A stretch of DNA of 32,000 nucleotides. It comes from Microcystis aeruginosa NIES-2549 (GTDB lineage: Bacteria > Cyanobacteriota > Cyanobacteriia > Cyanobacteriales > Microcystaceae). Below the pieces are notes generated by a model. It worked only from the letters and a program-made list of their open reading frames with translations, searched no databases and was not told where the DNA came from. The translations under genes and the position numbers were made by a program. The stretch is taken from the NCBI RefSeq assembly GCF_000981785.2, contig NZ_CP011304.1, positions 2,700,001 through 2,732,000 of the forward strand, in the 5' to 3' direction. Of this stretch, positions 2,919 to 28,008 are shown piece by piece. The stretch's first letter is position 1. Each line of letters opens with the position of its first letter.

Positions 2919-3884
2919 ATGAATCAAATTTCTATCGCTGTTACTTTTTTTCTTAGTTTAGTCTTGACCTCGCTTCCCTTATTACTTTTGGGGACAGCCG
3001 TTTCCAGTTTTTTGCTAGTTTTCGTCAATAAACAGCGATTAGTGGCGATATTTCCCCGCAATCGACTGTTAGGAGCGATCGTTGGCAGTGCCATCGGATT
3101 AATCTTACCCGTCGGACAATACGGCACGATTCCCGTCGCTAGAAGATTTTTATTAGAGGGAGTACCCCCAGGGGTGGTGTTTAGCTTTCTCACCGCTGCA
3201 CCTACCCTAAATATCGTCACTCTTTGGCTAACTTGGCAGACTTTCACCTATTCTAGTATTTTCTTCTATCGATCGCTTTCGGTCTGGTTAATGGCAATTT
3301 TTATCGGCACTCTCTTTAGTTTCTACCGGGAAAAACCCCGCACCGATAGCGAAATTCCCCTGGAATCGAGTTTAGTTCTTTCCGGGAGTTTTTTACCGGA
3401 GGAAGCAGCCAGTCAACCCCTGCAAAGAGTCGGCAGTCTTGTTTATGAGTATAAAACTAGAGATAGGCAAGCTTGGCCGATTTCTGTGCAGTTATTTCTC
3501 GATAACTTTATCGATGAAGCACTGGAATTAGGGGGATTATTAATTATAGGCTGTGCAATCGCTAGTGTCTTTCAGCTATTATTACCTCAGAGTCAATTAA
3601 TTGCCTGGGGGAATACTCCCGTTACTCAAATTCTCGTGCAGTTGTTCTTTGGTTTCACCCTCGCTGTTAATGCCAGTCTTAGCACTTTTGTCCCCGGTTC
3701 TTTAATTACTAATCTGTCCGTGGGTTCCACTCTAGCTTTTTTACTGATCGCTTCCCTCATTGATATTAAAGCTTTTATCCTCCTCCTATCAGCTTTCCGT
3801 GCTAAAATCGTCCTTTATTTCGGAATTTTATGGCTGTTAATGACTTTTTTAGTGGCTCTGATCCTCGGTTTTTATCTAGGTTGA
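2919..3884 (+). CDS. Polytopic membrane permease (COG0701/DUF318-like predicted permease)
   Basis: 321 aa with about 8 hydrophobic helices in two halves joined by a hydrophilic linker. This resembles the two-repeat 'predicted permease' family. The family assignment is by recollection only. Confidence 0.6.
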   Translation: MNQISIAVTFFLSLVLTSLPLLLLGTAVSSFLLVFVNKQRLVAIFPRNRLLGAIVGSAIGLILPVGQYGTIPVARRFLLEGVPPGVVFSFLTAAPTLNIVTLWLTWQTFTYSSIFFYRSLSVWLMAIFIGTLFSFYREKPRTDSEIPLESSLVLSGSFLPEEAASQPLQRVGSLVYEYKTRDRQAWPISVQLFLDNFIDEALELGGLLIIGCAIASVFQLLLPQSQLIAWGNTPVTQILVQLFFGFTLAVNASLSTFVPGSLITNLSVGSTLAFLLIASLIDIKAFILLLSAFRAKIVLYFGILWLLMTFLVALILGFYLG

Positions 3885-3896
3885 ATTCCTTCCGGG

Positions 3897-4060
3897 TCAG
3901 AAAATTTTTCTCTTGACAAAAGCCCCTTGACATGATATTATATTCATAATGGAAAATCCGTGCGCCTACAAGCCCTATTTTCCCAAGCATTTAAACTCTA
4001 ACTCATCTTGATTCTGCTTGCCCGAGTTGCCGGAACATAGTTTTATAGTTCTCACTCCAC
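3897..4060 (+). repeat. Copy 1 of a ~140-160-bp direct repeat carrying a consensus sigma70-type promoter (TTGACA-17-TATTAT)
   Basis: Near-identical to 5884-6035. The -35 TTGACA is at 3913-3918, the spacer is 17 nt, and the -10 TATTAT is at 3936-3941. Confidence 0.85.
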
Positions 4061-4076
4061 CCACCTACTGAGAGGT

Positions 4077-4325
4077 TCAATAAGCATCTTTTCGATGAAT
4101 ACTACTCAATATGATAATCAGCATTTCTTGATCTTGAATTTTGTAAATGATGCGATAATCTCCTATTCTAATTCGGTAGGTTTCATCATATCCTTTGAGT
4201 TTCTTGACTCCGCTAGGACGAGGTGTATCGGTAAGTAGTCTAATGGCAGTAATTAAGCGTTCGCGTTGTTGTTTGGGTAAGTTGTTTAGTTGTTTTTGAA
4301 CTGGTTTCGGAATAGACCTCTCCAT
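4077..4325 (-). CDS. RelE/ParE-family toxin, 5' end replaced by an IS insertion (chimeric start codon lies inside the IS terminal repeat)
   Basis: KPVQKQLNNLPKQQRERLITAIRLL...PRPSGVKKLKGYDETYRIRIGDYRIIYKI...IHRKDAY is a typical RelE/ParE layout. Codons 1-4 (ATG GAG AGG TCT) lie within the IS terminal repeat 4314-4324. Confidence 0.8.
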   Translation of the reverse strand: MERSIPKPVQKQLNNLPKQQRERLITAIRLLTDTPRPSGVKKLKGYDETYRIRIGDYRIIYKIQDQEMLIIILSSIHRKDAY

Positions 4326-5459
4326 AATTTAATTAAATCACAATATATAGGATATAATAAAACAAATAGTAACTCAAAAAAGCCATGAAAAACTACACTT
4401 GGGAATACATTCAAAAATATCCGAAACAAACTAAAAGACTATTAGGAATTGACTACCAACAACTAGAACAACTGATGGCACTTGGAAAACTTATACATCG
4501 GAAAAACCAATCAGAAATCGAAAAAACCAAAATTAGGATTAATCAACCAGGAAGCGGAACACCTCCTAAATTATCAGAAGAGGAACAAATTGTTCTAATG
4601 TTGGTTTATTTAAGACATCATCTAAGCTTTCAAATCTTAGGACTAATATTTCAAGTGAGTGAATCAACGGCTCATAATATCTTTACCTATTGGCAAAAAC
4701 TTTTTGAAGGAGAGTTACCGCCAAGTTTGTTAGAACAAATAAAGAAGTGCCAAGAAGAGGAAATAATAATTGAACAATTAAGGGATTATGAGTTGATTGT
4801 CGATAGCGCAGAACAGCCCGTGGAGAGGCCGACCGATTATCAAGAACAAAAAATATATTATTCGGGAAAGCAAAAAAGACATACTTTAAAAAGTCAATTT
4901 ATTGTCTTGCCAAAAGCTGAAGATATTGTTGATGTAGTTATTGGTCAACCTGGTCCGACGAGCGACATAAAAATCTGTCGGCAAACTTTAAGCAAATTCG
5001 ATTCTCAACAAACTTTTATTGGAGATAAAGCTTACCTAGGAGAAAATCAAATCAGAACTCCTGATAAAAAACCTAAGAATGGAGAATTAACCGAGAATCA
5101 AATTAAAGAAAATAAAGTTTTATCATCTCGGCGAATTTTTGTTGAGCATTTAATTCGAGTTGTCAAAGTATTTAAAGTAGTTCAAGAAAGATTTAGATTA
5201 AATAAAAGTCGATATAAATCGGTTTTACTGACCGTTTGTGGCTTAGTAAGGTTGAGAATTAGTGCGCTAATTTTAGAAGTAATAGAAGGGGAGCAATCAG
5301 GGGAAGTAATTGACGTTATAATTAGCCATAGTTTTCCGTCAAAATTGGATTTTGTCTCTTCAAACCCTGATTAATCGGTTTTGAGAGCTAATTTTGACTC
5401 TTGGTCTAATCTGCCTCTCTTCCTTGCTGTGACTGACTTATAAATTTTTGGAGAGGTCT
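4314..5459 (+). mobile_element. IS element, 1146 bp, IS5-superfamily/PIF-Harbinger-like (DDE_Tnp_4-type) with a 3-bp AAT target-site duplication
   Basis: An 11-bp perfect terminal inverted repeat (AGACCTCTCCA at 4314-4324; TGGAGAGGTCT at 5449-5459) extends into imperfect AT-rich matches. AAT is at 4311-4313 and 5460-5462. There is a single transposase ORF inside. Confidence 0.85.
4385..5374 (+). CDS. DDE transposase (N-terminal HTH plus DDE_Tnp_4-like catalytic domain)
   Basis: Candidate catalytic residues lie in LIVDSAEQP, FIGDKAY and FVEHLI. YYSGKQKRHTLK is typical of PIF/Harbinger-like IS5-superfamily transposases. Confidence 0.8.
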   Translation: MKNYTWEYIQKYPKQTKRLLGIDYQQLEQLMALGKLIHRKNQSEIEKTKIRINQPGSGTPPKLSEEEQIVLMLVYLRHHLSFQILGLIFQVSESTAHNIFTYWQKLFEGELPPSLLEQIKKCQEEEIIIEQLRDYELIVDSAEQPVERPTDYQEQKIYYSGKQKRHTLKSQFIVLPKAEDIVDVVIGQPGPTSDIKICRQTLSKFDSQQTFIGDKAYLGENQIRTPDKKPKNGELTENQIKENKVLSSRRIFVEHLIRVVKVFKVVQERFRLNKSRYKSVLLTVCGLVRLRISALILEVIEGEQSGEVIDVIISHSFPSKLDFVSSNPD

Positions 5460-5476
5460 AATAATAACTCTGTAGT

Positions 5477-5686
5477 TCACGCTTGAGTTGCCTCATATTC
5501 TTCGAGGGTTAGATAGTCTCCTGCTTGATAAGCTGATTCAGAAGCGATTATGTTAGCTTGCTCTTCTTCTGTAATTTCTATTTCAGTATGTCTTTCTTTG
5601 ATAAAGAGCAAAAAGTCAAGTAATTCAGTCAAAAGGGTGTCAGGTGTCTGCTCGATTTCTTTAATTAGTTGTTCTTTGAGTGTCAT
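5477..5686 (-). CDS. Small acidic antitoxin-like protein, ancestral partner of the RelE/ParE toxin now 1.15 kb away
   Basis: 69 aa, Glu-rich. Its TGA stop (5479-5477) overlaps a GTG (5480-5478) that opens the reconstructed toxin reading frame (GTGA coupling). Confidence 0.65.
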   Translation of the reverse strand: MTLKEQLIKEIEQTPDTLLTELLDFLLFIKERHTEIEITEEEQANIIASESAYQAGDYLTLEEYEATQA

Positions 5687-5820
5687 AGCTTTATCAGTAA
5701 TCAGTTATCAGTTATCAGTTATCAGTGAGCAGTAATCAGTTATCAGCGATTAATTCAATCATAGTCCATCATTCAATCATTCCAATCATAGTCGATGATT
5801 GGTGGTGGGTTACTGGACTA

Positions 5821-5861
5821 GGTAATAGGTGTAGGGGTAATTCATGAATTACCCCTACAAT
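5821..5861. repeat. Palindromic repeat GGTAATAGGTGTAGGGGTAATTCATGAATTACCCCTACAAT
   Basis: Contains a perfect 28-bp palindrome, gtaggggtaattcatgaattacccctac. A second copy lies at 11786-11826. Confidence 0.9.
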
Positions 5862-5883
5862 CGGCTAGGTTTTTCTGGATTTT

Positions 5884-6035
5884 GTCAAATTTTCTCTTGA
5901 CAAAAGCCCCTTGACATGATATTATATTCATAATGGAAAATCCGTGCGCCTGCGAACCCTATTTTCCCAAGCATTTAAACTCTATCTTGATTCTGCTTGC
6001 CGGAGTTGCCAGAATATACTCCTATAATTCTCCAT
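5884..6035 (+). repeat. Copy 2 of the promoter-bearing direct repeat
   Basis: -35 TTGACA is at 5897-5902 and -10 TATTAT at 5920-5925. It differs from copy 1 by a few substitutions (tacaag vs tgcgaa) and a 5-bp indel. Confidence 0.85.
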
Positions 6036-6195
6036 AAGGTTGACCTGGAATAGTCTTCTGATAATATATCCAAAAGTCCCTATAATATCAAATCCGTCGC
6101 TTTTTATTGAAGTTATCTAAAGCGGGAAAAATCCCTTTTATGTAGTCTATGATACTGTTTTTTGGATTGAGATCGTCTAAGGTCAAGGAAATTGC

Positions 6196-6320
6196 TTCTA
6201 GGGTTCCGATTTAAACTTCTTTAAATGTCAGGTCCGAGAGGAGCAAGCTAGTCTTAAATGAGCGGATCAAACATTTTTTCCGTCTAAGCTGGCTACACGG
6301 CGGGATAAAAGCCCGGGAGA
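6196..6320 (+). promoter_or_regulatory. Guanidine-I riboswitch aptamer (ykkC-yxkD class)
   Basis: All three conserved blocks are present in the right order: CTAGGGTTCCG (6198-6208), GGTCCGAGAG (6231-6240) and ACACGGCGGGATAAAAGCCCGGGAGA (6295-6320). Confidence 0.9.
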
Positions 6321-6378
6321 CTTTAAGGATAACTGTTTTGAGGCAGTGTCTTTGAAGACTCCCGGGTTATTGTATTTT
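6312..6378 (+). terminator. Riboswitch expression platform: intrinsic terminator whose 5' arm overlaps the aptamer 3' end
   Basis: CCCGGGAG (6312-6319) pairs with CTCCCGGG (6359-6366). The stem extends to about 18 bp with one mismatch and is followed by TTATTGTATTTT (6367-6378). Confidence 0.75.
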
Positions 6379-6386
6379 GAGGTAAA

Positions 6387-7568
6387 ATGATGTCCGAGGA
6401 ATCTACTTTTCAACCCCCGCATTCAACCGAAGCTGAACAGGCCCTAGAAAAAGAACGCCATTTGCCCCTAACCGGTTGGCAACAGGAAGTTTCCCAGGGG
6501 TTAACCTACGGTTTAGAGGCGGCCGATAGTATTCGCGATCGCAGTATTCCCACCTTTTCCAGGGGTGAGTTACCCCACTATGCGGGAATTAACACCTTTA
6601 TGAAGGCCCCCTATTTGGAAGATGTGCGGAATGTGGGCAATTATGACGTGGCAATCGTCGGTGTTCCCCATGATTCGGGGACAACTTACCGACCCGGAAC
6701 TCGTTTTGGTCCCCAGGGAATTCGGCGGATTTCGGCCCTTTATACGCCCTACAATTTTGAATTAGGAGTAGATCTGCGGGAACAAATTACTCTCTGTGAT
6801 CTGGGGGATATTTTCACCATTCCTGCTAATAACGAAAAGTCCTTTGATCAAATCTCTAAGGGGGTTGCCCATGTCTTTAGTTCCGGCGCCTTGCCGATTA
6901 TTTTAGGGGGTGATCATTCCATTGGTTTTCCGACAGTGCGGGGTATTTGTCGGCATTTAGGGGATAAAAAAGTCGGTATTATTCACTTTGATCGCCATGT
7001 GGATACCCAGGAAACAGATTTAGATGAACGGATGCACACTTGCCCCTGGTTTCATGCCACCAATATGAAAAATGCTCCTGCTAAAAATCTCGTCCAATTA
7101 GGGATTGGCGGTTGGCAAGTTCCCCGTCAAGGTGTTAAAGTTTGCCGCGAGCGGGCCACTAATATTTTGACCGTCACCGACATTGTAGAACGAGGCATTG
7201 ATGCGGCCGCCGAATTTGCCTTAGAACGAGCTTTAGATGGCACGGATTGCGTTTGGATTAGTTTCGATATTGATTGCATTGATGCCGGTTTTGTCCCCGG
7301 TACAGGTTGGCCAGAACCTGGCGGTTTATTACCCCGTGAAGCCTTAGCTTTATTAGGTAAAATTATCCAAAAAGCTCCCATTTGTGGTATGGAAGTGGTG
7401 GAAGTTTCCCCTCCCTACGATATTAGTGATATGACCTCTTTGATGGCTACCCGTGTTATTTGTGATGCCATGGCCCATCTGGTTATTTCAGGTCAATTAC
7501 CGCGTAAAGAAAAGCCCTATTATATTCATCCTGAAGCCAATCTGGCCGTTGACGAACCTTGGCAGTAA
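6387..7568 (+). CDS. gdmH: Agmatinase/ureohydrolase-family enzyme, probable Ni-dependent guanidine hydrolase (GdmH-like)
   Basis: Ureohydrolase metal-ligand motifs are present: GGDHSIGFP, HFDRHVDT, SFDIDCIDAGFVPG. It sits directly behind a guanidine-I riboswitch and ahead of hypA/hypB-type genes. Confidence 0.8.
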   Translation: MMSEESTFQPPHSTEAEQALEKERHLPLTGWQQEVSQGLTYGLEAADSIRDRSIPTFSRGELPHYAGINTFMKAPYLEDVRNVGNYDVAIVGVPHDSGTTYRPGTRFGPQGIRRISALYTPYNFELGVDLREQITLCDLGDIFTIPANNEKSFDQISKGVAHVFSSGALPIILGGDHSIGFPTVRGICRHLGDKKVGIIHFDRHVDTQETDLDERMHTCPWFHATNMKNAPAKNLVQLGIGGWQVPRQGVKVCRERATNILTVTDIVERGIDAAAEFALERALDGTDCVWISFDIDCIDAGFVPGTGWPEPGGLLPREALALLGKIIQKAPICGMEVVEVSPPYDISDMTSLMATRVICDAMAHLVISGQLPRKEKPYYIHPEANLAVDEPWQ

Positions 7569-7574
7569 TTTCCT

Positions 7575-7931
7575 ATGCACGAAACTGATATGACCAAGGC
7601 GTTAATTATGACAGTTCGAGATTGGTATGATAGCCAACCTGAAAAGCTCAAAATTGAAAAAATTCATCTCATGGTTGGTGAATTTACCTGTGTCGAACCG
7701 GTCAGTTTACAATTTGCCTTTGAAGTTCAAACTGATAATACTTTTCTTGCTGGTGTGGAATTAGCGATTAAAAATATTCCCCTAATTGCTTATTGTCATT
7801 GCTGCCAAAAGGATTATAAACCCCAAATTGGCCAGCAATATTCCTGCCCAACTTGTCGATCACCGATGGAGGATATTCGTTCAGGTCGAGAGTTAAAAAT
7901 TGATCACATTGAATATTCTTTAGATTCTTAA
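7575..7931 (+). CDS. hypA: HypA-type nickel metallochaperone (GhaA-like accessory protein)
   Basis: Starts MHE, the HypA nickel-binding N-terminus. It has a zinc-ribbon pair, CHCC...CPTC. 118 aa. Confidence 0.85.
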
Positions 7932-7962
7932 ACAAAGTTGGGCGATCGCTTCTACAAGTTCG

Positions 7963-8679
7963 ATGATCAATTATTCATTCTCAACTAAAATGCACCAAAC
8001 TTTTGACGCAGCCCTAGAAATTAATCTACTTCATGCCAATCAAACAGGAGCCGATCACAACCGGGAACATTTTGACGAGTGGGGCATTACCTGTTTAAAC
8101 CTGATGAGTAGTCCTGGTGCGGGTAAAACTGTATTATTGGAAAAAACCCTCGCAGCCTTAAAAGATCAATTAAAAATGGCTGTTATTGAAGGAGATATGA
8201 CTACAGAACTAGATGCAGAGCGCCTGAGACAATATGGAGTTCCCGTGATTGCCATTAATACGGGTCGCTCCTGTCACTTAGATTCCAAAATGGTAGCTGG
8301 GGGAATTCATCGTTTCAAAGAAGATTATAACCCCAAAGAGTTTGATTTATTGTTGGTGGAAAATGTGGGAAATTTAGTTTGTCCCGCCGAATTTGAGGTA
8401 GGGGAACACGCCAAAGTTGCTCTATTAAGTATTACTGAAGGAGAAGATAAACCCCTCAAATATCCAATTATGTTTCAAGAAGCGGATTGTCTGATTATTA
8501 CCAAATTAGATCTGGCTCCTTATTTAGAGATTGATTTAAAACGTTTAGAGGCAAATGTTCGTTCTATGAATCCTGATGTAAAGATTATCGCTCTTTCTGC
8601 TCAAACAGGAGAAGGTTTAGAAGAGTGGTTAAATTGGCTAAAAAGCCAAGTCAATATTCCGAGGTTTTTGAATTGTTAA
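7963..8679 (+). CDS. hypB: HypB-type nickel-binding GTPase (GhaB-like accessory protein)
   Basis: P-loop [23 protein letters not shown] (NKxD-like). The true start may be the internal ATG of MHQTFD. Confidence 0.85.
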
Positions 8680-9757: not shown

Positions 9758-10195
9758 ATGACACGAGATACTCTACATATAAGCACTCAGGTTTTACCCG
9801 GTAATAAAATTGAAATTGCCACCCCTGAATTAAATGTGGGTGAGGTGGTTGAAGTTTTGATACTTGCCAAAACTCCTCAAAATAATCAAGATAAAAATCA
9901 ATCTGATCCCTTAATAGGTTTATTTAAAAGTTACCCCGATTTAGCAACTCAATCTGAAGAAAGTGTACAAGGTTATCCAGTTTATCTAGAGCAGACGGAG
10001 GGAGATTTAGCTAAGAATGGAAAAAATATTGAGCAACTTAATAATAATTCCAATATCGGTCAAACACAGTTGGGTTTTGGAGAATTTATTCAAAAATTTC
10101 GCCAAGAACATAATCTAGAACAAAATGGTATTGAATCAGAAGAACTTTTGGAGGGAGTGCGCGATTTATCCTCGGGAAGCGAGATAATTTGGTGA
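9758..10195 (+). CDS. Antitoxin-like protein, unusually long (145 aa), upstream partner of the PIN toxin
   Basis: Its stop TGA (10193-10195) overlaps the GTG (10192-10194) of the PIN-domain ORF. The middle and C-terminal regions are acidic and low-complexity. Confidence 0.55.
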   Translation: MTRDTLHISTQVLPGNKIEIATPELNVGEVVEVLILAKTPQNNQDKNQSDPLIGLFKSYPDLATQSEESVQGYPVYLEQTEGDLAKNGKNIEQLNNNSNIGQTQLGFGEFIQKFRQEHNLEQNGIESEELLEGVRDLSSGSEIIW

Positions 10196-10608
10196 ATTTA
10201 CGTTTTTTACTCGATAGTAATATCTTATCAGAGCCTTTACGACCTCAACCGAATACAAAGGTTATGGAAAAACTACTTGAACATCAGCAAGAAATCGCTA
10301 CAGCGACAGTTGTTTTGCATGAGCTTCTATTTGGCTGTTATCGTCTTCCTGATTCAACAAAACGAAAAAATATTGAGGAATATCTCAAAGAAACTGAATT
10401 AATATTACCTTTATTATCTTATGATCACAAGGCTGCCATCTGGCACGCACAAGAAAGATCACGTCTTGTTAAATTGGGCAAAACACCGCCTTTTGCTGAT
10501 GGTCAAATTGCAGCAGTTGCCTACGTTAATCAACTTATTTTAGTCACTAATAATATCTCAGATTATCGAGAATTTCAGGGACTTAAAATAGAAAATTGGC
10601 ATTATTAA
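10192..10608 (+). CDS. vapC: PIN-domain ribonuclease toxin (VapC/FitB-like)
   Basis: FLLDSNILSE (first acidic PIN residue), VLHELLFG, LVTNNISDY (C-terminal acidic motif). The GTGA overlap with the upstream ORF favours the GTG at 10192 over the TTG at 10189. Confidence 0.8.
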   Translation: MNLRFLLDSNILSEPLRPQPNTKVMEKLLEHQQEIATATVVLHELLFGCYRLPDSTKRKNIEEYLKETELILPLLSYDHKAAIWHAQERSRLVKLGKTPPFADGQIAAVAYVNQLILVTNNISDYREFQGLKIENWHY

Positions 10609-14133: not shown

Positions 14134-14354
14134 GGGGTGTGGGGTGTGGGGTGTAGGGTGTGGGGTGTGGGGTGTAGGGTGTAGGGTGTAGGGTGTGGGA
14201 AGTGGGGAAGTGGGGAAGTGGGAAGTGGGGGGTATTTTCAGGGAACAGTGGACAGTGAACAGTAAACAGTAAACAGTAATCAGTGAACTGATGACTGATA
14301 ACTGATAACTGATAACTGATAACTGATGACTGATAACTGATAACTGATAACTGA
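14134..14354. repeat. Compound microsatellite: (GGGTGTR)~10, (GGGAAGTG)~4, (RACAGT)n, (ACTGATAA)~8
   Basis: Read directly. It starts at the first base after the stop codon at 14131-14133 and ends about 45 nt before the ATG at 14398. Confidence 0.95.
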
Positions 14355-15417: not shown

Positions 15418-15541
15418 ACAGTAAACAGTGAGCAGTAATCAGTGAAAAGAAATCTCGGAACTTGCCACTTAATATTGTTCACTTAAAACTCAAATCTGAT
15501 AACTGATAACTGATAACTGATAACTGATAACTGAAAAAAAT

Positions 15542-21584: not shown

Positions 21585-21857
21585 TTAAGTATAGTGATAT
21601 CGTGCTGCTAAAAACTCAATGCGGTCATCTTTGACTCGATAGACTAGACGGTGTTCTGTGGTAATTCGGCGTGACCAAGTATTAGCTTCAAGATACTTTA
21701 TGGGTTCTGGTTTGCCTATCCCAGTAAAGGGATCGGCGGTGACAGATTCTACGAGATCGAGTAGGCGAAAGGCGATTTTTTTATCTGTTTTGTACCACCA
21801 TCTTAAATCTTCTCGAAATTGGTGATCAAAGACAATTGCCCTACTCTTGGCGTTCAA
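21585..21857 (-). CDS. yoeB: YoeB/Txe-family toxin
   Basis: FREDLRWWYKTDKKIAFRLLDLVESV..DPFTGIGKPEPIKY...WSRRITTEHRLVYRV...IEFLAARYHY. The start is a TTG that overlaps the yefM end, so it is uncertain. Confidence 0.85.
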   Translation of the reverse strand: MNAKSRAIVFDHQFREDLRWWYKTDKKIAFRLLDLVESVTADPFTGIGKPEPIKYLEANTWSRRITTEHRLVYRVKDDRIEFLAARYHYT

Positions 21858-22140
21858 TTCCTAACTCCTGACAAAGTTCTGTAACTGTCTGTCCCGGTAT
21901 TGTTTGAACGTCCCTCTCCATTGAACGTTCCAGTGCTGCCAATAACTTTCGAGCATTCGCAGGCGATCGCAAAAGATAAACGGTTTCTAATAAGCCAGTT
22001 AATTCCTCTGCGCTTAATAGTGCCATATCTTTATGACCAGGGCGAGTAATAATCGCCATACTATTCTCGCTTTCCAGTCGATCCAGAAGGCTCGCTAAAT
22101 TTTCTTGAGCTTGAGTGTAGGTAGTTTGGATAGAAAACAT
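21841..22140 (-). CDS. yefM: Phd/YefM-family antitoxin
   Basis: YTQAQENLASLLDRLESENSMAIITRPGHKDMALLSAEELTGLLETVYLLRSPANARKLL. Confidence 0.85.
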   Translation of the reverse strand: MFSIQTTYTQAQENLASLLDRLESENSMAIITRPGHKDMALLSAEELTGLLETVYLLRSPANARKLLAALERSMERDVQTIPGQTVTELCQELGIERQE

Positions 22141-22187
22141 AAGGCGAGGGCAACGAGTTGATTCGATTTTAGCTTATTTCATCAACT

Positions 22188-22224
22188 GAGAAAACGGGTT
22201 TTTTAAAGAAACCCGTTTTCTGGA
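22188..22224. repeat. Palindromic element H2 (C/G variant, altered loop)
   Basis: gagaaaacgggttttttaaagaaacccgttttctgga. Confidence 0.9.
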
Positions 22225-22230
22225 CTTAGG

Positions 22231-22359
22231 GCGATCGATCTTCACTCCTACCTCATCCCAGAATAATTGACGAAAAACATCGATAAAACCCTATATAATC
22301 GCTTAAAACAGCGATACTTGACAAAATCGGGGGGGATAGGCTTTTGGATAGAATTTACC
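22231..22359 (+). repeat. Repeat A' (second copy of repeat A, with no ORF behind it)
   Basis: See 20490-20620. It is followed after about 30 nt by palindrome H3 instead of a coding region. Confidence 0.85.
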
Positions 22360-22393
22360 AAAAGACAGGACTTGGTTCCCTAATCCGTGCCAT

Positions 22394-22426
22394 AGAAAAG
22401 GGGTTTCTTTGAGAAACCCCTTTTCT
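22394..22426. repeat. Palindromic element H3 (G/C variant)
   Basis: agaaaaggggtttc tttga gaaaccccttttct, with the same gccatag / ggaata flanks as H1. Confidence 0.95.
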
Positions 22427-22517
22427 GGAATAAGCCGCGATCGCTAGGAGTTGCTAACTCGCGCTAGACTGGATTCAAATAATTAACTTCCAATCAATTC
22501 AAAGCAAGGACAAACCC

Positions 22518-22730
22518 ATGAAATATCGCGTCTTAATTGAGCAAGATGAAGATGGCATTTATGTGGCTGAAGTTCCCTCCCTACCCGGCTGTATTTCTCA
22601 AGGCAATACCCGGGAAGAGTTACTCGCCAACATTCAGGAAGCAATTGCTTTATATCTAGAAAGCCTAGAAGCGCACAATGAACCGATTCCACCACCAATT
22701 TCTGAGGAACTGGTAGAGGTTAAATTATGA
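22518..22730 (+). CDS. hicB: HicB-family antitoxin (UPF0150-type, single domain)
   Basis: YRVLIEQDEDGIYVAEVPSLPGCISQGNTREELLANIQEAIALYLE. Confidence 0.85.
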   Translation: MKYRVLIEQDEDGIYVAEVPSLPGCISQGNTREELLANIQEAIALYLESLEAHNEPIPPPISEELVEVKL

Positions 22731-22951
22731 GTGAACTCCCTCCTATCGCTGGTCGCCAAGTCGTTAAAGCACTAGGCAAGATTGGCTACGAATTAGATCG
22801 GCAGCGAGGAAGTCATATCATACTCAGACAAAAAGCCTATCCCTATCGACGCATCACCATCCCTGACCATCGAGAAGTGGCTAAGGGAGCACTGAGATCT
22901 ATCATTCGTCAAGCGGGATTGACAGTGGCAGAGTTTAAAACTCTCCTTTAG
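22727..22951 (+). CDS. hicA: HicA-family mRNA interferase toxin
   Basis: ATGA overlap with hicB. VVKALGKIGYELDRQRGSHIILRQ...ITIPDH.EVAKGALRSIIRQAGLTVAEF. Confidence 0.85.
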   Translation: MSELPPIAGRQVVKALGKIGYELDRQRGSHIILRQKAYPYRRITIPDHREVAKGALRSIIRQAGLTVAEFKTLL

Positions 22952-23028
22952 CTTGAGTCACCAGAGTCGAAACAACCGCTCATAAATCGCCAATTCAAAA
23001 ATAGACTATTAAACAATGTAAACGCTAT

Positions 23029-23301
23029 ATGAGTCAATCTGCTACTGCAATCAATACTAAACTAATTGATTCCCTTGCTCAAATTATCCTTTCCTTAACT
23101 GACGAAGAACAACAGCTTCTGCTACAAAAAATTCAGCATCCAGCCTTATCTGATGTCGATTTTCATCAAGGTTTTCCCTTTGATGTTCAAATTCCTAATA
23201 CAGAAACGCTCGCCGCCATTGAAGAAGTAGAAAAACATCCTGAGCGTCTTAAGCGTTATACTAGCGTTGGGCAGATGTTCGAGGATTGGAACAGTGATTA
23301 A
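23029..23301 (+). CDS. Orphan antitoxin-like small protein (C-terminal IPNTETLAAIEE...ERLKRYTSVGQMFEDW resembles RelB/DinJ-type tails)
   Basis: 90-aa ORF in the TA island with no intact toxin ORF behind it. Confidence 0.45.
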   Translation: MSQSATAINTKLIDSLAQIILSLTDEEQQLLLQKIQHPALSDVDFHQGFPFDVQIPNTETLAAIEEVEKHPERLKRYTSVGQMFEDWNSD

Positions 23302-23540
23302 GACAACCCAAGTGCCGATTCCTGCCTTGATGCGTAGTGTCGAAGAAATTAAACTTGAATGGAGTTAAATATGGATTTTGTTCCTCAGCTTCCCCGGGAT
23401 TCTGATCAACTTAAGCAAACTTTGGCAAAAGCACACCGCAATTGTCAAGAGATGGAATTAGTTGGATTACAATGAGAAGAAGCGATTAGTCGCTTAGAAG
23501 CGGAAAATCGTCAAAGACGAAGACAGCAGTTAGAAAACCT

Positions 23541-23573
23541 AGAAAACGGGTTTCTTTGAGAAACCCGTTTTCT
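23541..23573. repeat. Palindromic element H4 (C/G variant)
   Basis: agaaaacgggtttctttgagaaacccgttttct. Confidence 0.95.
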
Positions 23574-23664
23574 GGAGAAACAGGGCAAAATTATCGCCAA
23601 GTTCAAAACAACTGATAATCACATCGACAATCTTCGAGACAATCACCGAGCTTTATTCCTGTCA

Positions 23665-23910
23665 ATGATGCTAACAAAATATCTAAAACAAGCAATGGAA
23701 CTGGCAACCTATGAAGTTCTAGAAGACGGTACTTTTTATGGAGAAATTCCGGGATTTGAGGGAGTATATGCTAATGAAACAACCCTCGAAGCTACTAAGG
23801 AACAGTTACAGGAAGTTTTGGAAGGCTGGGTTATTTTAGGACTACGCTTACAGCATCAGTTACCGATTGTTGACGGTATCAATCTAACCCCTCAACAAAA
23901 AATCGCCTGA
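23665..23910 (+). CDS. hicB: HicB-family antitoxin (second pair)
   Basis: YEVLEDGTFYGEIPGFEGVYANETTLEATKEQLQEVLEGWVILGL. Confidence 0.8.
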   Translation: MMLTKYLKQAMELATYEVLEDGTFYGEIPGFEGVYANETTLEATKEQLQEVLEGWVILGLRLQHQLPIVDGINLTPQQKIA

Positions 23911-24131
23911 TGCCACCTTTTGCCCCCATCAAAAGGAAAGAGTTAATTCGCCAGTTGAGAAAGCTGGGATTTTCTGGTCCTCTGGTAGGAGGAAATCATC
24001 AATATATGGTGCAGGGAAAATTAAAAATCTGGATTCCTAATCCACACCAAGGAGATATCAGTAAAAGCTTGCTGGCTAAAATTTTACAACAAGCAAATAT
24101 TAGTAGAGAAGAATGGGAAAAATTACGTTAA
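23910..24131 (+). CDS. hicA: HicA-family toxin (second pair)
   Basis: TGATG stop/start overlap. ELIRQLRKLGFSGPLVGGNHQYMV...IPNPHQGDISKSLLAKILQQANISREEW. Confidence 0.8.
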   Translation: MPPFAPIKRKELIRQLRKLGFSGPLVGGNHQYMVQGKLKIWIPNPHQGDISKSLLAKILQQANISREEWEKLR

Positions 24132-26212: not shown

Positions 26213-26857
26213 TCAAATCTCGTATAACTCCTGTAACCATCTCAAAAAAATTGCCGATTGGGGATGGGAGCAATTAAGTATTTTTTGTTTTACTGCATCG
26301 TGAAGTTGTTTCCCCGGCGGATCTTGCCAAGCTAAATAGGTATGAATATTAGCCTTATCTAGATGATAATCTCTATAGGTTGCCCCTTGTTGTTTTGCCT
26401 CTATCACCTTGTTTTGTGTATATTGCCAAAGATTATTATCGGGAACTAAATAGGCTAAAAAAGTCTCTAACATCCCTCTAGATTGATTGTCAGGCATCAT
26501 CCACACACCGAATTTTATACCCGATTCTAGAGTTATAATTAATCCCTCTGCTGGTAAATTTTGAGGGAAGTTAGGTATATTTGGTAAACAGGCATTATAT
26601 AAACTTTTCCAACGATTATCAGGTTCTTGGTCTGCATCCATAATAATTCCTAAATGAGTTAGTCCACTATCATTGATTTCGTTGTAAATATTATCGCTAT
26701 CGAGTAAACTCTCAATGCTACCAGCGGGTTTAATATAGATAATAGCTGTGTCCTTTGTCTCTCCCCAAGAGATGCCATGGGCTTCTGCTAATTCGGGAAT
26801 CACTCTCATGTCTTCTCTTCCCTCTACCAAAAGTTTTTTAGGATGTATTCTGGGCAT
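26213..26857 (-). CDS. Small Toprim-like protein (214 aa), downstream partner of the ATPase
   Basis: LLVEGREDMRV (conserved Glu12, VEGxxD pattern) and GIIMDADQEPD (D74-x-D76) resemble the Toprim Glu plus DxD. The ATG lies 2 nt after the ATPase stop. Confidence 0.6.
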   Translation of the reverse strand: MPRIHPKKLLVEGREDMRVIPELAEAHGISWGETKDTAIIYIKPAGSIESLLDSDNIYNEINDSGLTHLGIIMDADQEPDNRWKSLYNACLPNIPNFPQNLPAEGLIITLESGIKFGVWMMPDNQSRGMLETFLAYLVPDNNLWQYTQNKVIEAKQQGATYRDYHLDKANIHTYLAWQDPPGKQLHDAVKQKILNCSHPQSAIFLRWLQELYEI

Positions 26858-26859
26858 TT

Positions 26860-28008
26860 TTAGCGAACCTCAATATCTCTTTCAGAAGCGAGGTAAATTT
26901 GTCTAGCATTGAAGGAAACTGCTTTTTCTTTGTCCCTATCTATCCTTTGAATAGTAATCTCGTTATCGGTAATTTTTTCTTCGGTAATTAATTCGGCTAA
27001 ACTTTGCCAACAATCCCGGCTGTGAGTGGTGGCGAATACCTGAATATTGAGTTTTTTAGCGGTTTCCCAGACGACTTTCCACATATCAGTCATGACAGTA
27101 AAGTGCAATCCGCTATCAATTTCATCAACTAATAAAATTCCATTTTCAAGATTAACCATCGCTAAAACTAATCCTAACATTCGCCAAAATCCATCGCCTA
27201 AACTGCCAATAGGTATAGGTTGATCATGATTTTTAATTTTGATTAAAAACCCACCTCTAACACCTAGGTTATTTGCAGTTGAATACTTGCCAGAACCAAT
27301 ACTGGCTATTCTTTCAATTTTTGGCTCAATAATTTTCAAAGATTCAATAATTAAATCTTCTAAAGGAGAGAGAACAATGTTGTCAAAAAGTGCCGCCATA
27401 TCAGAACTTGTTAGAGAAAATGGTGTTAAGAACCTCAATTCAATTTTATTATCAATACCTATTTTATGGGAAATTCTGCTTAAACTAGCCATTCTTCTGG
27501 AATCTCTGGCAAGAGTACCGTTGGCAAGAAGTTCCAGTTCAATAGGTTTTTGTGATTGACTCCATCTAATACTTAAAAGAAGTTTATTCCATTCCTCATC
27601 GTCGAAAATATTATCATTATTTAAATCATCATTTTTGTCTGAAAATAGAGATAGTTGTATAGGAATACTTTTAACAGAAATAGTAACACTTTCCTGATGT
27701 GATTCCCTAGATCCAATGATAATAATTTCCTTACTTGGGATGATTTCATGCCCAGGAAATAAATGACAAATTTCAAAAACTTTAGTGCGACCAGCTAACT
27801 TATTTTCCAACCAAGCGAACTCACCTCTATAGCTAATAGTTTCAAGAAATATATCTATATTATTCTGAGCATACAAAAACTGAATCGCTTCTAAAATAGA
27901 AGTTTTACCGCTATTATTTTTACCTACTAAGAGATTAATTCGACCAAGATTGGCCATCTCAAAATTTTGAAAACCGCGAAAGCCTTCAATTTTTAGGGAT
28001 TCTAACAT
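26860..28008 (-). CDS. ABC-type/AAA15-AAA21-like ATPase (RecF/OLD/AriA-like)
   Basis: N-terminal KIEGFRGF plus Walker A GKNNSGKT (K35). Signature-like SLGDGFWRML, Walker B ILLVDEIDSGLH, H-loop FATTHS. Confidence 0.8.
   Translation of the reverse strand: MLESLKIEGFRGFQNFEMANLGRINLLVGKNNSGKTSILEAIQFLYAQNNIDIFLETISYRGEFAWLENKLAGRTKVFEICHLFPGHEIIPSKEIIIIGSRESHQESVTISVKSIPIQLSLFSDKNDDLNNDNIFDDEEWNKLLLSIRWSQSQKPIELELLANGTLARDSRRMASLSRISHKIGIDNKIELRFLTPFSLTSSDMAALFDNIVLSPLEDLIIESLKIIEPKIERIASIGSGKYSTANNLGVRGGFLIKIKNHDQPIPIGSLGDGFWRMLGLVLAMVNLENGILLVDEIDSGLHFTVMTDMWKVVWETAKKLNIQVFATTHSRDCWQSLAELITEEKITDNEITIQRIDRDKEKAVSFNARQIYLASERDIEVR

What the first reader, a model, noticed from the sequence alone, without database searches (positions are those of the whole stretch)
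4077..5686. IS insertion splits a RelE/ParE toxin-antitoxin operon and donates a new in-frame start codon to the toxin
What the sequence shows:
- Removing 4314-5459 plus one copy of the AAT duplication joins 5480-5463 to 4313 and downstream.
- The restored minus-strand reading is GTG AAC TAC AGA GTT ATT ATT CCG AAA CCA..., i.e. MNYRVIIPKPVQKQLNNLP. This is a canonical RelE/ParE N-terminus.
- Its GTG overlaps the antitoxin stop (GTGA).
- In the present state the toxin ORF instead begins ATG GAG AGG TCT inside the IS terminal repeat, giving MERSIPKP.... It lacks the first beta-strand residues.
- It is now 1.15 kb from its antitoxin and from the operon promoter.

Inference: the toxin is either silenced or inactivated, or it is expressed from an outward-reading signal in the AT-rich IS end. 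In the second case it would be uncoupled from its antitoxin, and the N-terminal change may have detoxified it.
Basis: seen in the sequence. Interest (0 to 1): 0.65.

Follow-up and report, generated by a model that had tools for sequence, protein, structure and literature searches.

The report
Transposon insertion breaks a toxin gene
A 1,146-base jumping gene has landed just inside the toxin gene of a Microcystis RelBE toxin-antitoxin pair, cutting off the toxin's start; this is an ordinary, recent gene-killing event in a genome full of such elements.

Summary

- **The element.** Window 4314-5459 is a 1,146-bp insertion sequence (IS) with a DDE_Tnp_4/HTH_Tnp_4 transposase. Its terminal inverted repeats are AGACCTCTCCA, and it is flanked by a 3-bp AAT target duplication.
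- **The restored gene.** Removing the IS restores an 84-aa RelE-type toxin (MNYRVIIPKP...). Its GTG overlaps the antitoxin stop codon (GTGA).
- **Empty sites.** Nine Microcystis loci, several with the same neighbouring genes, carry the uninterrupted site ...GTGAACTACAGAGTTATTATTCCGAAACC...
- **Other IS copies.** Seven copies elsewhere are 100% identical to this one. Each has its own 3-bp duplication.
- **The "donated" ATG.** It sits in the inverted repeat of every copy. At another insertion it again opens a MERS... ORF, this time on a sigma-factor fragment. It is a by-product with a one-in-three chance of falling in frame.
- **Expression.** I found no outward-facing promoter or ribosome-binding site.
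- **Damage to the toxin.** The chimera loses the conserved Y3 and I6 and the first beta-strand.

Most likely this is a recent pseudogenisation of the toxin that leaves an intact orphan antitoxin. That is the usual first step of toxin-antitoxin decay. Interest is low.

Side note: the RelBE cassette is always bracketed by direct repeats that carry a near-consensus promoter.

The parts
4314..5459 (+). Complete 1,146-bp insertion sequence (IS5-superfamily, DDE_Tnp_4 type).
   Evidence: The boundaries are set by the empty-site alignment: L001 960-2412 matches window 4314-2862, and L001 346-963 matches window 6037-5460. Seven other copies are 1,146 bp long and 100% identical.
4314..4333 (+). Left terminal inverted repeat. 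The perfect core is AGACCTCTCCA at 4314-4324. Its reverse complement carries the outward-facing ATG at 4325-4323.
   Evidence: (pair I2).
5440..5459 (+). Right terminal inverted repeat. The perfect core is TGGAGAGGTCT at 5449-5459.
4311..4313 (.). Left copy of the AAT target-site duplication. On the minus strand it is codon 7 (ATT, Ile) of the toxin.
   Evidence: The empty site holds a single copy.
5460..5462 (.). Right copy of the AAT target-site duplication.
   Evidence: Other copies have AAT (5), ATT (1) or GTT (1).
4385..5374 (+). Transposase gene, 329 aa, apparently intact.
   Evidence: Pfam DDE_Tnp_4 at 102.6 bits and HTH_Tnp_4 at 67.8 bits. Full-length relatives at 75-82% identity occur in other cyanobacteria. 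The identical protein is encoded at 7 other sites.
4077..4313 (-). The 3' 93% of the relE toxin gene (codons 7-84 plus the stop). It now heads the chimeric ORF 4077-4325 (MERS + IPKP...).
   Evidence: It differs by only 2-8 nt from intact orthologues and has no frameshift or stop.
5463..5480 (-). Orphaned 5' end of relE: the GTG start plus codons 2-6 (NYRVI). The GTG overlaps the antitoxin stop as GTGA.
5477..5686 (-). Intact antitoxin gene, 69 aa.
   Evidence: The identical protein is encoded in at least 23 public contigs, next to an intact 84-aa toxin in 7 of the 8 places shown. Its only family match is a weak one to DUF2281, below the cut-off.
5758..5785 (-). Candidate relBE operon promoter, TTGGAA-16-TATGAT. 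This is a consensus match only.
3903..4053 (+). Toxin-side copy of the direct repeat that brackets the RelBE cassette. It carries TTGACA-17-TATTAT at 3913-3941, pointing antisense into relE and then in the sense direction into the IS transposase gene.
   Evidence: (families D1, D4).
5887..6032 (+). Antitoxin-side copy of the same direct repeat. Its promoter-like site at 5897-5925 points towards the Guanidine-I riboswitch.

Best explanation
A currently active 1,146-bp insertion sequence (IS) with a DDE_Tnp_4 transposase transposed into a chromosomal Microcystis relBE toxin-antitoxin operon. The IS belongs to the IS5 superfamily and inserts at A(A/T)T sites with a 3-bp duplication.

**What the insertion did (shown).** It landed after the sixth codon of relE and duplicated codon 7 (ATT). 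The toxin's GTG start, its translational coupling to the antitoxin (the GTGA overlap) and codons 2-6 stayed with the antitoxin gene. The other 78 codons are now 1.15 kb downstream.

**The 82-aa ORF (shown).** MERSIPKP... exists only because the inverted repeat of this IS contains ATGGAGAGGTCT reading outward, and this insertion happens to be in frame. That is a one-in-three accident, and it recurs at another insertion.

**Functional consequences (inferred).**
- relE is functionally a pseudogene. It has lost its ribosome-binding context.
- It could be transcribed only by read-through from the relB promoter across the IS in antisense.
- Any product would lack the conserved Y3 and I6 and the beta1 strand that closes the RelE sheet.
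- The antitoxin gene and its promoter region are untouched, so the locus now behaves as an orphan antitoxin.

**Timing (inferred).** The event is recent. The IS is identical to copies elsewhere, the toxin remnant has no further lesions, and neither junction was found in any other assembly searched.
For: **Anatomy and restoration.**

**Empty sites.**
- Nine Microcystis loci, several with the same flanking genes (ArsP_1 permease and chorismate-binding enzyme on one side; arginase-family and HypA genes on the other), read GTGAACTACAGAGTTATTATTCCGAAACC without interruption.
- 334 homologues are nearly all 84 aa and begin M(N/S/T)Y(R/K)(V/I)IIPKP.
- Y3 and I6 are at least 90% conserved.

**The toxin is RelE-type.**
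- PF05016 scores 41.5 bits.
- Sequence hits include the archaeal RelE 1wmi, with an N-terminus alignment of MTYRVKIHKQV to MNYRVIIPKPV.
- The AlphaFold2 model of the 98%-identical orthologue has pLDDT 87.6 with beta1 at residues 4-6.
- Foldseek top hits are all RelE (2khe, 1wmi, 9g12, 3g5o, 4fxe), with TM 0.77-0.85 normalised to the query.
- The chimera model has no N-terminal strand, a lower pLDDT (80.8), and a C-terminus (residues 79-82, which hold the invariant H-R...Y) below 50.

**The IS is real and active.**
- Seven copies at different sites are 100% identical and each has a perfect 3-bp duplication.
- Diverged copies in Crocosphaera and Trichodesmium share the same ends and A[A/T]T flanks.

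**The start codon is generic.** In L041 the same inverted-repeat ATG opens MERSNDEDN... on a split sigma-70 gene.

**No expression signals.**
- No promoter-like site faces out of the IS left end.
- The ATG is preceded by UUUAAUUAAAUU with no purine-rich stretch, and by an in-frame TAA.

**Recency.**
- There are only 2 nt differences from the L033 toxin.
- Both junctions are absent from JGI metagenome contigs.
- The chimeric product is not on record.

**Literature.**
- Toxin-first pseudogenisation is the usual route of chromosomal toxin-antitoxin decay (PMC13617665).
- About 10% of a Microcystis genome is IS (PMC2779907).
Against: Nothing contradicts the insertion itself. The functional part (dead toxin) is inferred, not shown.

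- The remnant ORF is intact.
- No terminator-like site lies on the minus strand within the IS, so read-through transcription from the relB promoter is possible.
- Many cyanobacterial genes are translated without a Shine-Dalgarno sequence, and an AU-rich leader can support initiation (general knowledge).
- The AlphaFold2 confidence differences between the intact and chimeric proteins are modest and do not measure stability.
Confidence: 0.85

Rival explanations
1. The chimeric ORF MERSIPKP... is expressed, either by read-through from the relB promoter across the IS or from a weak signal in the AT-rich IS end. It would yield an attenuated or non-toxic RelE variant that still matters biologically, for example by titrating antitoxin or acting as a low-level toxin uncoupled from operon autoregulation.
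For: - The ORF is intact, in frame and 78/84 residues native.
- No terminator-like site lies on the minus strand across the IS.
- The AU-rich leader shows no significant structure (z = 0.15).
- All invariant putative active-site residues (K44, R53, H79, R80, Y84) are retained.
Against: - No promoter-like site faces outward at the threshold of 9 of 12 matches.
- There is no Shine-Dalgarno sequence, and translational coupling is lost.
- Y3, I6 and the beta1 strand are lost.
- The in-frame ATG is a generic feature of the inverted repeat, seen at an unrelated insertion too.
- The insertion is not seen in any other assembly, so there is no sign it has been retained by selection.
Confidence: 0.1
2. 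The toxin was inactivated under selection. On this view the locus is kept as an orphan antitoxin (an anti-addiction or anti-defence module), and toxin loss here is one of several independent, favoured events.
For: - The antitoxin is intact and identical in protein sequence to that of many strains.
- An independent toxin deletion with the antitoxin retained occurs in L029.
- A 10-aa internal deletion variant exists (P0101).
- Antitoxin-retaining decay and anti-addiction roles are discussed in the literature (PMC13617665).
Against: - Seven of the 8 places shown that carry the identical antitoxin keep an intact toxin, so loss is the exception.
- Toxin-first loss is also what neutral decay predicts, because antitoxin-first loss is lethal.
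- There is no test of selection here.
Confidence: 0.1
3. MERSIPKP... is the native N-terminus, or the IS at this position is an assembly artefact.
For: Only that neither junction was found in other data.
Against: - Nine empty sites and 334 homologues show the MNYRVIIPKP N-terminus.
- The 5' fragment of relE, the perfect 3-bp duplication and both junctions lie on one contiguous sequence. Repeat-induced misassembly does not create target duplications.
- All other copies of the IS show the same duplication.
Confidence: 0.02

Closest known systems
IS-mediated pseudogenisation of chromosomal type II toxin-antitoxin toxins (toxin-first decay, orphan antitoxins), as surveyed in Photorhabdus (PMC13617665)
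   Same: The toxin is disabled while the antitoxin stays intact. The locus lies in a variable, toxin-antitoxin-rich chromosomal region, and intact orthologues exist in sister strains.
   Different: Here the lesion is a clean, datable IS insertion 18 nt into the coding sequence, not a truncation or point mutation. It leaves a complete in-frame chimeric ORF.
RelE mRNA-interferase toxins (P. horikoshii aRelE 1WMI, T. thermophilus RelE 2KHE, E. coli RelE 4FXE/4V7J)
   Same: - Pfam PF05016 match.
- The predicted fold matches RelE structures at TM 0.77-0.85.
- The N-terminal beta1 aligns residue for residue with aRelE.
- A conserved C-terminal H-R-x-x-x-Y is present.
- The antitoxin gene lies upstream with a 4-nt overlap.
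   Different: - Sequence identity to any solved RelE is only 21-39%.
- The NCBIfam RelE_StbE score is just below its cut-off (25.7 against 27.9).
- The antitoxin belongs to no curated family.
- No activity was tested.
IS5-family insertion sequences with DDE_Tnp_4 (PIF/Harbinger-like) transposases and 3-bp target duplications
   Same: - A single ORF with HTH_Tnp_4 and DDE_Tnp_4 domains.
- Short terminal inverted repeats.
- A 3-bp duplication at A(A/T)T-type targets.
- Many identical copies per genome.
   Different: - It scores far below the NCBIfam IS5 equivalog cut-offs (65.8 against 140).
- Its length matches none of the IS5-family ISMae elements tabulated for NIES-843 (1223, 1686 and 519 bp; PMC2779907).
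- The ISfinder name and subgroup could not be checked.
IS ends that create hybrid promoters or fusion ORFs on neighbouring genes (for example IS10 pOUT, IS1/IS2 hybrid promoters, ISAba1; cited from general knowledge)
   Same: A sequence in the terminal repeat, here an ATG, is placed in front of a truncated host gene.
   Different: Only a start codon is supplied. No outward -35/-10 match and no ribosome-binding site were found, so activation is not indicated.

Membership tests
RelE/ParE toxin superfamily (Pfam PF05016) | Significant match to the family profile above the curated cut-off. | tested here: met
   The restored protein scores 41.5 bits and the chimera 41.1 bits, against a cut-off of 23.
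RelE subfamily (ribosome-dependent mRNA endonuclease) | RelE fold: beta1, two helices and a three-stranded sheet. | tested here: met
   The AlphaFold2 model of the 98%-identical orthologue has pLDDT 87.6. The Foldseek top 9 hits are all RelE, with probability 1.00 and query-normalised TM 0.75-0.85.
RelE subfamily (ribosome-dependent mRNA endonuclease) | Match to the curated RelE/StbE model TIGR02385 above its cut-off. | tested here: not met
   25.7 bits against a cut-off of 27.9. This is a near miss. Fold and Pfam evidence still place it in the RelE branch.
RelE subfamily (ribosome-dependent mRNA endonuclease) | Toxicity by mRNA cleavage at the ribosomal A site. | not testable with these tools
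   This needs kill-rescue and cleavage assays. Only conservation of the basic and aromatic residues K44, R53, H79, R80 and Y84 was seen.
Type II toxin-antitoxin operon | A small antitoxin gene immediately upstream of the toxin, co-oriented and overlapping or abutting it. | tested here: met
   In the restored sequence and in 8 intact orthologous loci, the 69-aa ORF stop overlaps the toxin GTG as GTGA.
Type II toxin-antitoxin operon | The antitoxin belongs to a recognised antitoxin family and neutralises the toxin. | tested here: inconclusive
   There is only a weak DUF2281 match (20.2 bits against a cut-off of 26.5) and no NCBIfam hit. Neutralisation is not testable here.
Insertion sequence, IS5 superfamily (DDE_Tnp_4 type) | A DDE transposase of the family. 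| tested here: met
   PF13359 at 102.6 bits and PF13613 at 67.8 bits, both above their cut-offs.
Insertion sequence, IS5 superfamily (DDE_Tnp_4 type) | Terminal inverted repeats at both ends. | tested here: met
   An 11-nt perfect repeat, about 21 nt imperfect. It is conserved in 26 related loci.
Insertion sequence, IS5 superfamily (DDE_Tnp_4 type) | A target-site duplication of fixed length at independent insertions. | tested here: met
   A 3-bp duplication is present here and at 7 of 7 identical copies. Four of 6 diverged full copies have a perfect duplication.
Insertion sequence, IS5 superfamily (DDE_Tnp_4 type) | Multiple copies at different genomic sites (mobility). | tested here: met
   Six sites in GCA_001704955.2 (chromosome and plasmid), one in an ENA metagenome, and many contig-end copies in NIES-4325 and M015S2.
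Insertion sequence, IS5 superfamily (DDE_Tnp_4 type) | NCBIfam IS5-family equivalog score. | tested here: not met
   NF033581 scores 65.8 bits against a cut-off of 140. The element is therefore filed at superfamily level only, and the ISfinder subgroup was not tested.

The most novel reading that the evidence does not exclude
The inverted repeat of this IS acts as a portable outward-facing translation start (AU-rich leader plus ATG GAG AGG TCT). Here it would produce an N-terminally remodelled, detoxified RelE that is still made from read-through transcripts. Such a protein might retain antitoxin binding and so rewire the autoregulation of the relB promoter, or of paralogous RelBE systems.
Probability: 0.06. 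Interest if true: 0.45.

Novelty: new member of a known kind. Interest (0 to 1): 0.15.

Why it matters
It matters little beyond annotation.

- The 82-aa ORF should be annotated as an IS-disrupted relE pseudogene, and the 69-aa gene as an orphan antitoxin.
- It is a clean, datable example of toxin-first decay of a chromosomal toxin-antitoxin system in a genus whose genomes are about 10% IS.
- It shows that this particular IS is currently active: identical copies sit at many sites, including inside a sigma-factor gene.
- It would become interesting only if the chimeric toxin were shown to be made and to have an activity.

Tried and rejected
1. **Same insertion elsewhere.** An exact look-up of the chimeric 82-aa product and exact scans of JGI metagenome contigs for the left junction and the right junction all returned nothing. 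I therefore cannot say whether the allele is shared by other strains.
2. **Outward promoter in the IS end.** The consensus scan found none. By eye only 8-of-12 matches exist (TTGAGT-17-TATCCT). I rejected this as evidence.
3. **RNA structure around the chimeric ATG.** It is no different from shuffled sequence (z = 0.15).
4. **Rfam at a permissive threshold over 3850-6400,** to explain the flanking repeats. The only hit was the Guanidine-I riboswitch.
5. **The stem-loop in the flanking repeat.** It is weak: z = -2.2 in one copy and not significant in two others. I did not pursue it as an RNA gene.
6. **An attC-like (integron) reading of the flanking repeats.** I considered this by eye. A GTTAAAT core is present in some copies but not in the window's toxin-side copy, and there is no inverse core. 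Rejected.
7. **Naming the IS.** The NIES-843 table lists no IS5-family element of 1,146 bp (PMC2779907), and ISfinder is not available. The element is left unnamed.
8. **PMC11448079** (the Microcystis mobilome paper). It contains nothing on toxin-antitoxin disruption by this IS.
Full report
**1. Checking the observation**

- AGACCTCTCCA lies at 4314-4324, and its reverse complement ends at 5459.
- The repeat finder extends the arms to about 21 nt at 86% complementarity (pair I2).
- AAT flanks both ends (4311-4313 and 5460-5462).
- Between the ends lies one long ORF, 4385-5374 (+), 329 aa. It matches Pfam DDE_Tnp_4 (102.6 bits), HTH_Tnp_4 (67.8 bits) and DDE_Tnp_1.
- On the minus strand the ORF 4077-4325 begins ATG GAG AGG TCT ATT CCG... 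(MERSIPKP...). That ATG is the reverse complement of bases 10-12 of the left inverted repeat. An in-frame TAA lies 6 nt upstream of it.
- The antitoxin-like ORF 5477-5686 (-) is complete.
- Deleting 4314-5459 plus one AAT gives GTG AAC TAC AGA GTT ATT ATT CCG AAA CCA..., an 84-codon ORF. Its GTG (5480-5478) overlaps the upstream stop (5479-5477).

**2. Is the restored gene real?**

- The restored protein hits ParE_toxin PF05016 at 41.5 bits against a cut-off of 23.
- A search of the 5.8-billion-protein collection returned 334 homologues, almost all exactly 84 aa. The best is 98% identical and named as a RelE/ParE toxin of Microcystis aeruginosa.
- Their N-termini read MNYRVIIPKP, MSYKVIIPKP or MTYRIIIPKL.
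- In a 76-sequence alignment, Y3 and I6 are at least 90% conserved and P8 is invariant.

**3. Empty sites**

- The contig encoding the best hit (L001, SFBK01000285.1) has the same gene order as the window on the toxin side: ArsP_1 permease, chorismate-binding enzyme, then a 125-aa ORF.
- It reads ...gcGTGAACTACAGAGTTATTATTCCGAAACCAGTT... without interruption.
- BLAST places L001 960-2412 on window 4314-2862 (97.4% identity) and L001 346-963 on window 6037-5460. The two alignments abut exactly at the proposed IS ends.
- A look-up of the window's exact antitoxin protein returned eight more Microcystis loci. Some share the window's gene order on both sides, with the arginase-family and HypA genes on one side and ArsP_1 on the other (L028, L030, L031, L034).
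- All nine loci carry the uninterrupted junction.

**4. The insertion sequence**

- A scan of one genome per species found 26 related loci.
  - Full-length copies at 78-82% DNA identity occur in Crocosphaera chwakensis CCY0110, Trichodesmium erythraeum IMS101 and others.
  - Many near-identical fragments lie at contig ends in Microcystis NIES-4325 and M015S2. That pattern is typical of a multicopy repeat.
- All share the ends AGAC(A/C)TCTCCATAATT... and ...TTGGAGA(T/G)GTCT, with flanks of the form A(A/T)T.
- A look-up of the exact transposase returned seven further sites. Six are in assembly GCA_001704955.2 (chromosome CP012375.1 and the 147.5-kb record CP025929.1). I believe this is M. aeruginosa NIES-2481, but that is from memory. 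The seventh is in an ENA metagenome.
- At every one the element is 1,146 bp, 100% identical to window 4314-5459, and flanked by a perfect 3-bp duplication: AAT five times, ATT once, GTT once.
- The element is therefore real, its boundaries are right, and it has been moving recently.
- NCBIfam places the transposase nearest the IS5-family models, but far below their equivalog cut-offs (65.8 against 140).
- The NIES-843 IS table lists no IS5-family element of this length (PMC2779907). I therefore file it at superfamily level and leave it unnamed.

**5. What the toxin is, and what the insertion removed**

- Sequence search of solved structures gives P. horikoshii aRelE (1wmi, E = 3.9e-8; MTYRVKIHKQV aligned to MNYRVIIPKPV). 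It also gives T. thermophilus RelE (2khe), M. jannaschii RelE3 and E. coli RelE.
- An AlphaFold2 model of the 98%-identical orthologue is confident (pLDDT 87.6). It has a strand at residues 4-6, two helices and a three-stranded sheet.
- Its Foldseek matches are led by RelE structures, with query-normalised TM 0.77-0.85 for the top five. This is a RelE-type mRNA interferase rather than a gyrase-poisoning ParE. No activity was tested.
- The chimera replaces MNYRVI with MERS.
  - Its model lacks the N-terminal strand.
  - Its overall confidence is lower (80.8).
  - Residues 79-82, which hold the invariant H-R and Y, fall below pLDDT 50.
- This is suggestive of destabilisation, not proof.

**6. 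Expression signals**

- The consensus scan of 3800-6400 finds no promoter-like site reading out of the IS left end, and no terminator-like site on the minus strand inside the IS. It finds a modest candidate for the operon promoter at 5785-5758 (-).
- The 15 nt before the chimeric ATG are UUUAAUUAAAUU with no purine-rich stretch. The native GTG is preceded by GAGG and is coupled to the antitoxin stop.
- Predicted RNA structure around the ATG is no different from shuffled sequence.
- Transcription of the remnant by read-through is therefore possible. Efficient translation is not indicated.

**7. Is the 'donated start codon' special?**

No. The ATG is part of the inverted repeat in nearly all copies. 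Whether it is in frame with the target is a one-in-three matter. In L041 the same IS splits a sigma-70 gene, and the public gene call for the downstream fragment starts at the same ATG: MERSNDEDN....

**8. Age and spread**

- The remnant differs from the intact L033 toxin by 2 nt. It has one private conservative change, D50E, at a variable column.
- The chimeric product is not on record.
- Neither junction occurs in JGI metagenome contigs.
- Together with the 100% identity of the IS to other copies, this points to a recent, strain-limited event.

**9. Interpretation**

This is an ordinary IS-mediated pseudogenisation of a toxin that leaves an orphan antitoxin.

- A recent survey of Photorhabdus found the same order of events, with toxin inactivation preceding antitoxin loss, as the dominant decay route (PMC13617665).
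- IS elements make up about 10% of a Microcystis genome (PMC2779907).
- The alternative, that the chimera is made and matters, cannot be excluded without transcript and protein data. It has no positive support.

**10. Beyond the finding**

- **Flanking direct repeats.**
  - In the window and in every related locus, the RelBE cassette is bracketed by direct repeats. In the window they are 3903-4053 and 5887-6032.
  - The repeats have an 80-nt, nearly invariant core with a near-consensus TTGACA-17-TATTAT promoter-like site (11 of 12 matches, TG-extended).
  - The toxin-side copy points antisense into relE and, in this strain, onward in the sense direction into the IS transposase gene.
  - The antitoxin-side copy points towards a Guanidine-I riboswitch at 6187-6321 (84 bits). 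Behind the riboswitch lies an operon of arginase-family, HypA and HypB/CobW genes.
  - The cassette with its repeats occurs in at least three genomic contexts. This would fit integration by recombination at that sequence, but I did not test the idea.
- **An independent toxin loss.** In L029 the toxin is lost by a deletion between CAACT(C) microhomologies in relE and the flanking repeat. The antitoxin is identical and intact.
- **A toxin-antitoxin-rich window.** It also holds a YefM/YoeB pair and two HicB/HicA pairs at 21585-24131, and a PIN-domain gene at 10189-10608.

Noticed in passing
window 3903-4053 and 5887-6032 (+); L001 351-502 and 1221-1371; also L028-L035: The RelBE cassette is bracketed by direct repeats in every Microcystis locus fetched, across at least three genomic contexts. 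The repeats share a nearly invariant 80-nt core with a near-consensus promoter-like site (TTGACA-17-TATTAT, TG-extended; 3913-3941 and 5897-5925). The longer version includes the 3' end of an NB-ARC/TPR gene. This could be a recombination landing pad for cassettes or a source of convergent antisense transcription; the RNA structure is weak.
   Followed up: partly
L029 3206-3260 (GCA_020245605.1, JADBUP010000006.1): An independent toxin loss at the same locus. relE is deleted after about codon 17, by a junction at CAACT(C) microhomology with the flanking repeat. The antitoxin protein is identical and intact.
   Followed up: yes
window 6187-8679 (+): A Guanidine-I riboswitch (RF00442, 84 bits) lies upstream of an arginase-family gene (6387-7568), a HypA-like gene (7575-7931) and a HypB/CobW-like gene (7963-8679). 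From memory, this resembles the Ni-dependent guanidine hydrolase operon described in Synechocystis.
   Followed up: partly
L041 57-341 (-) (CP012375.1, about 1095166-1096955): An identical copy of the IS splits a sigma-70 family gene (region 2 on one side, region 4 on the other). The public gene call for the region-4 fragment starts at the same inverted-repeat ATG: MERSNDEDN...
   Followed up: yes
window 6007-6114, compared with L028/L030/L034 1369-2703: Related strains carry about 1.3 kb, with a 201-aa ORF that has no Pfam hit, between the riboswitch operon and the RelBE cassette. The window has only about 107 nt there.
   Followed up: no
window 5691-5746; also 2796-2828, 14134-14354 and 15487-15537: Heptanucleotide tandem arrays. 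The TTATCAG/AACTGAT type lies directly upstream of the antitoxin start. It is expanded to about 18 units in L001 (613-735), so the spacing of the relBE promoter region varies between strains.
   Followed up: no
window 5830-5859: A perfect 30-bp palindrome, TGTAGGGGTAATTCA|TGAATTACCCCTACA, lies between the flanking repeat and the relBE promoter region. The same palindrome appears next to the repeat in L032.
   Followed up: no
window 21585-24131: A toxin-antitoxin islet: YefM/YoeB (21585-22140, -), HicB/HicA (22518-22951, +), an unassigned 90-aa ORF (23029-23301), and UPF0150(HicB-like)/HicA (23665-24131, +). It lacks the promoter-bearing repeat seen around RelBE.
   Followed up: partly
window 9758-10608 (+): A PIN-domain ORF (10189-10608) overlaps the end of a 145-aa ORF that has no family match. 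This is a possible VapBC-like pair with an unusually long upstream partner.
   Followed up: no
window 26213-28008 (-): An AAA_15/AAA_21 ATPase (382 aa) is followed by a DUF3226 protein (214 aa). This two-gene arrangement is reminiscent of defence systems.
   Followed up: no
L012 1430-3030 (M. aeruginosa LEGE 91341) and L002 (1.6-kb contig in a Saprospiraceae MAG): L012 is a copy of the IS enlarged to about 1.6 kb by internal insertions, with a diverged left end but an intact ATT duplication. L002 is an 81%-identical copy that fills a 1.6-kb contig binned to a non-cyanobacterial MAG; this is probably mis-binning, but possibly transfer.
   Followed up: no
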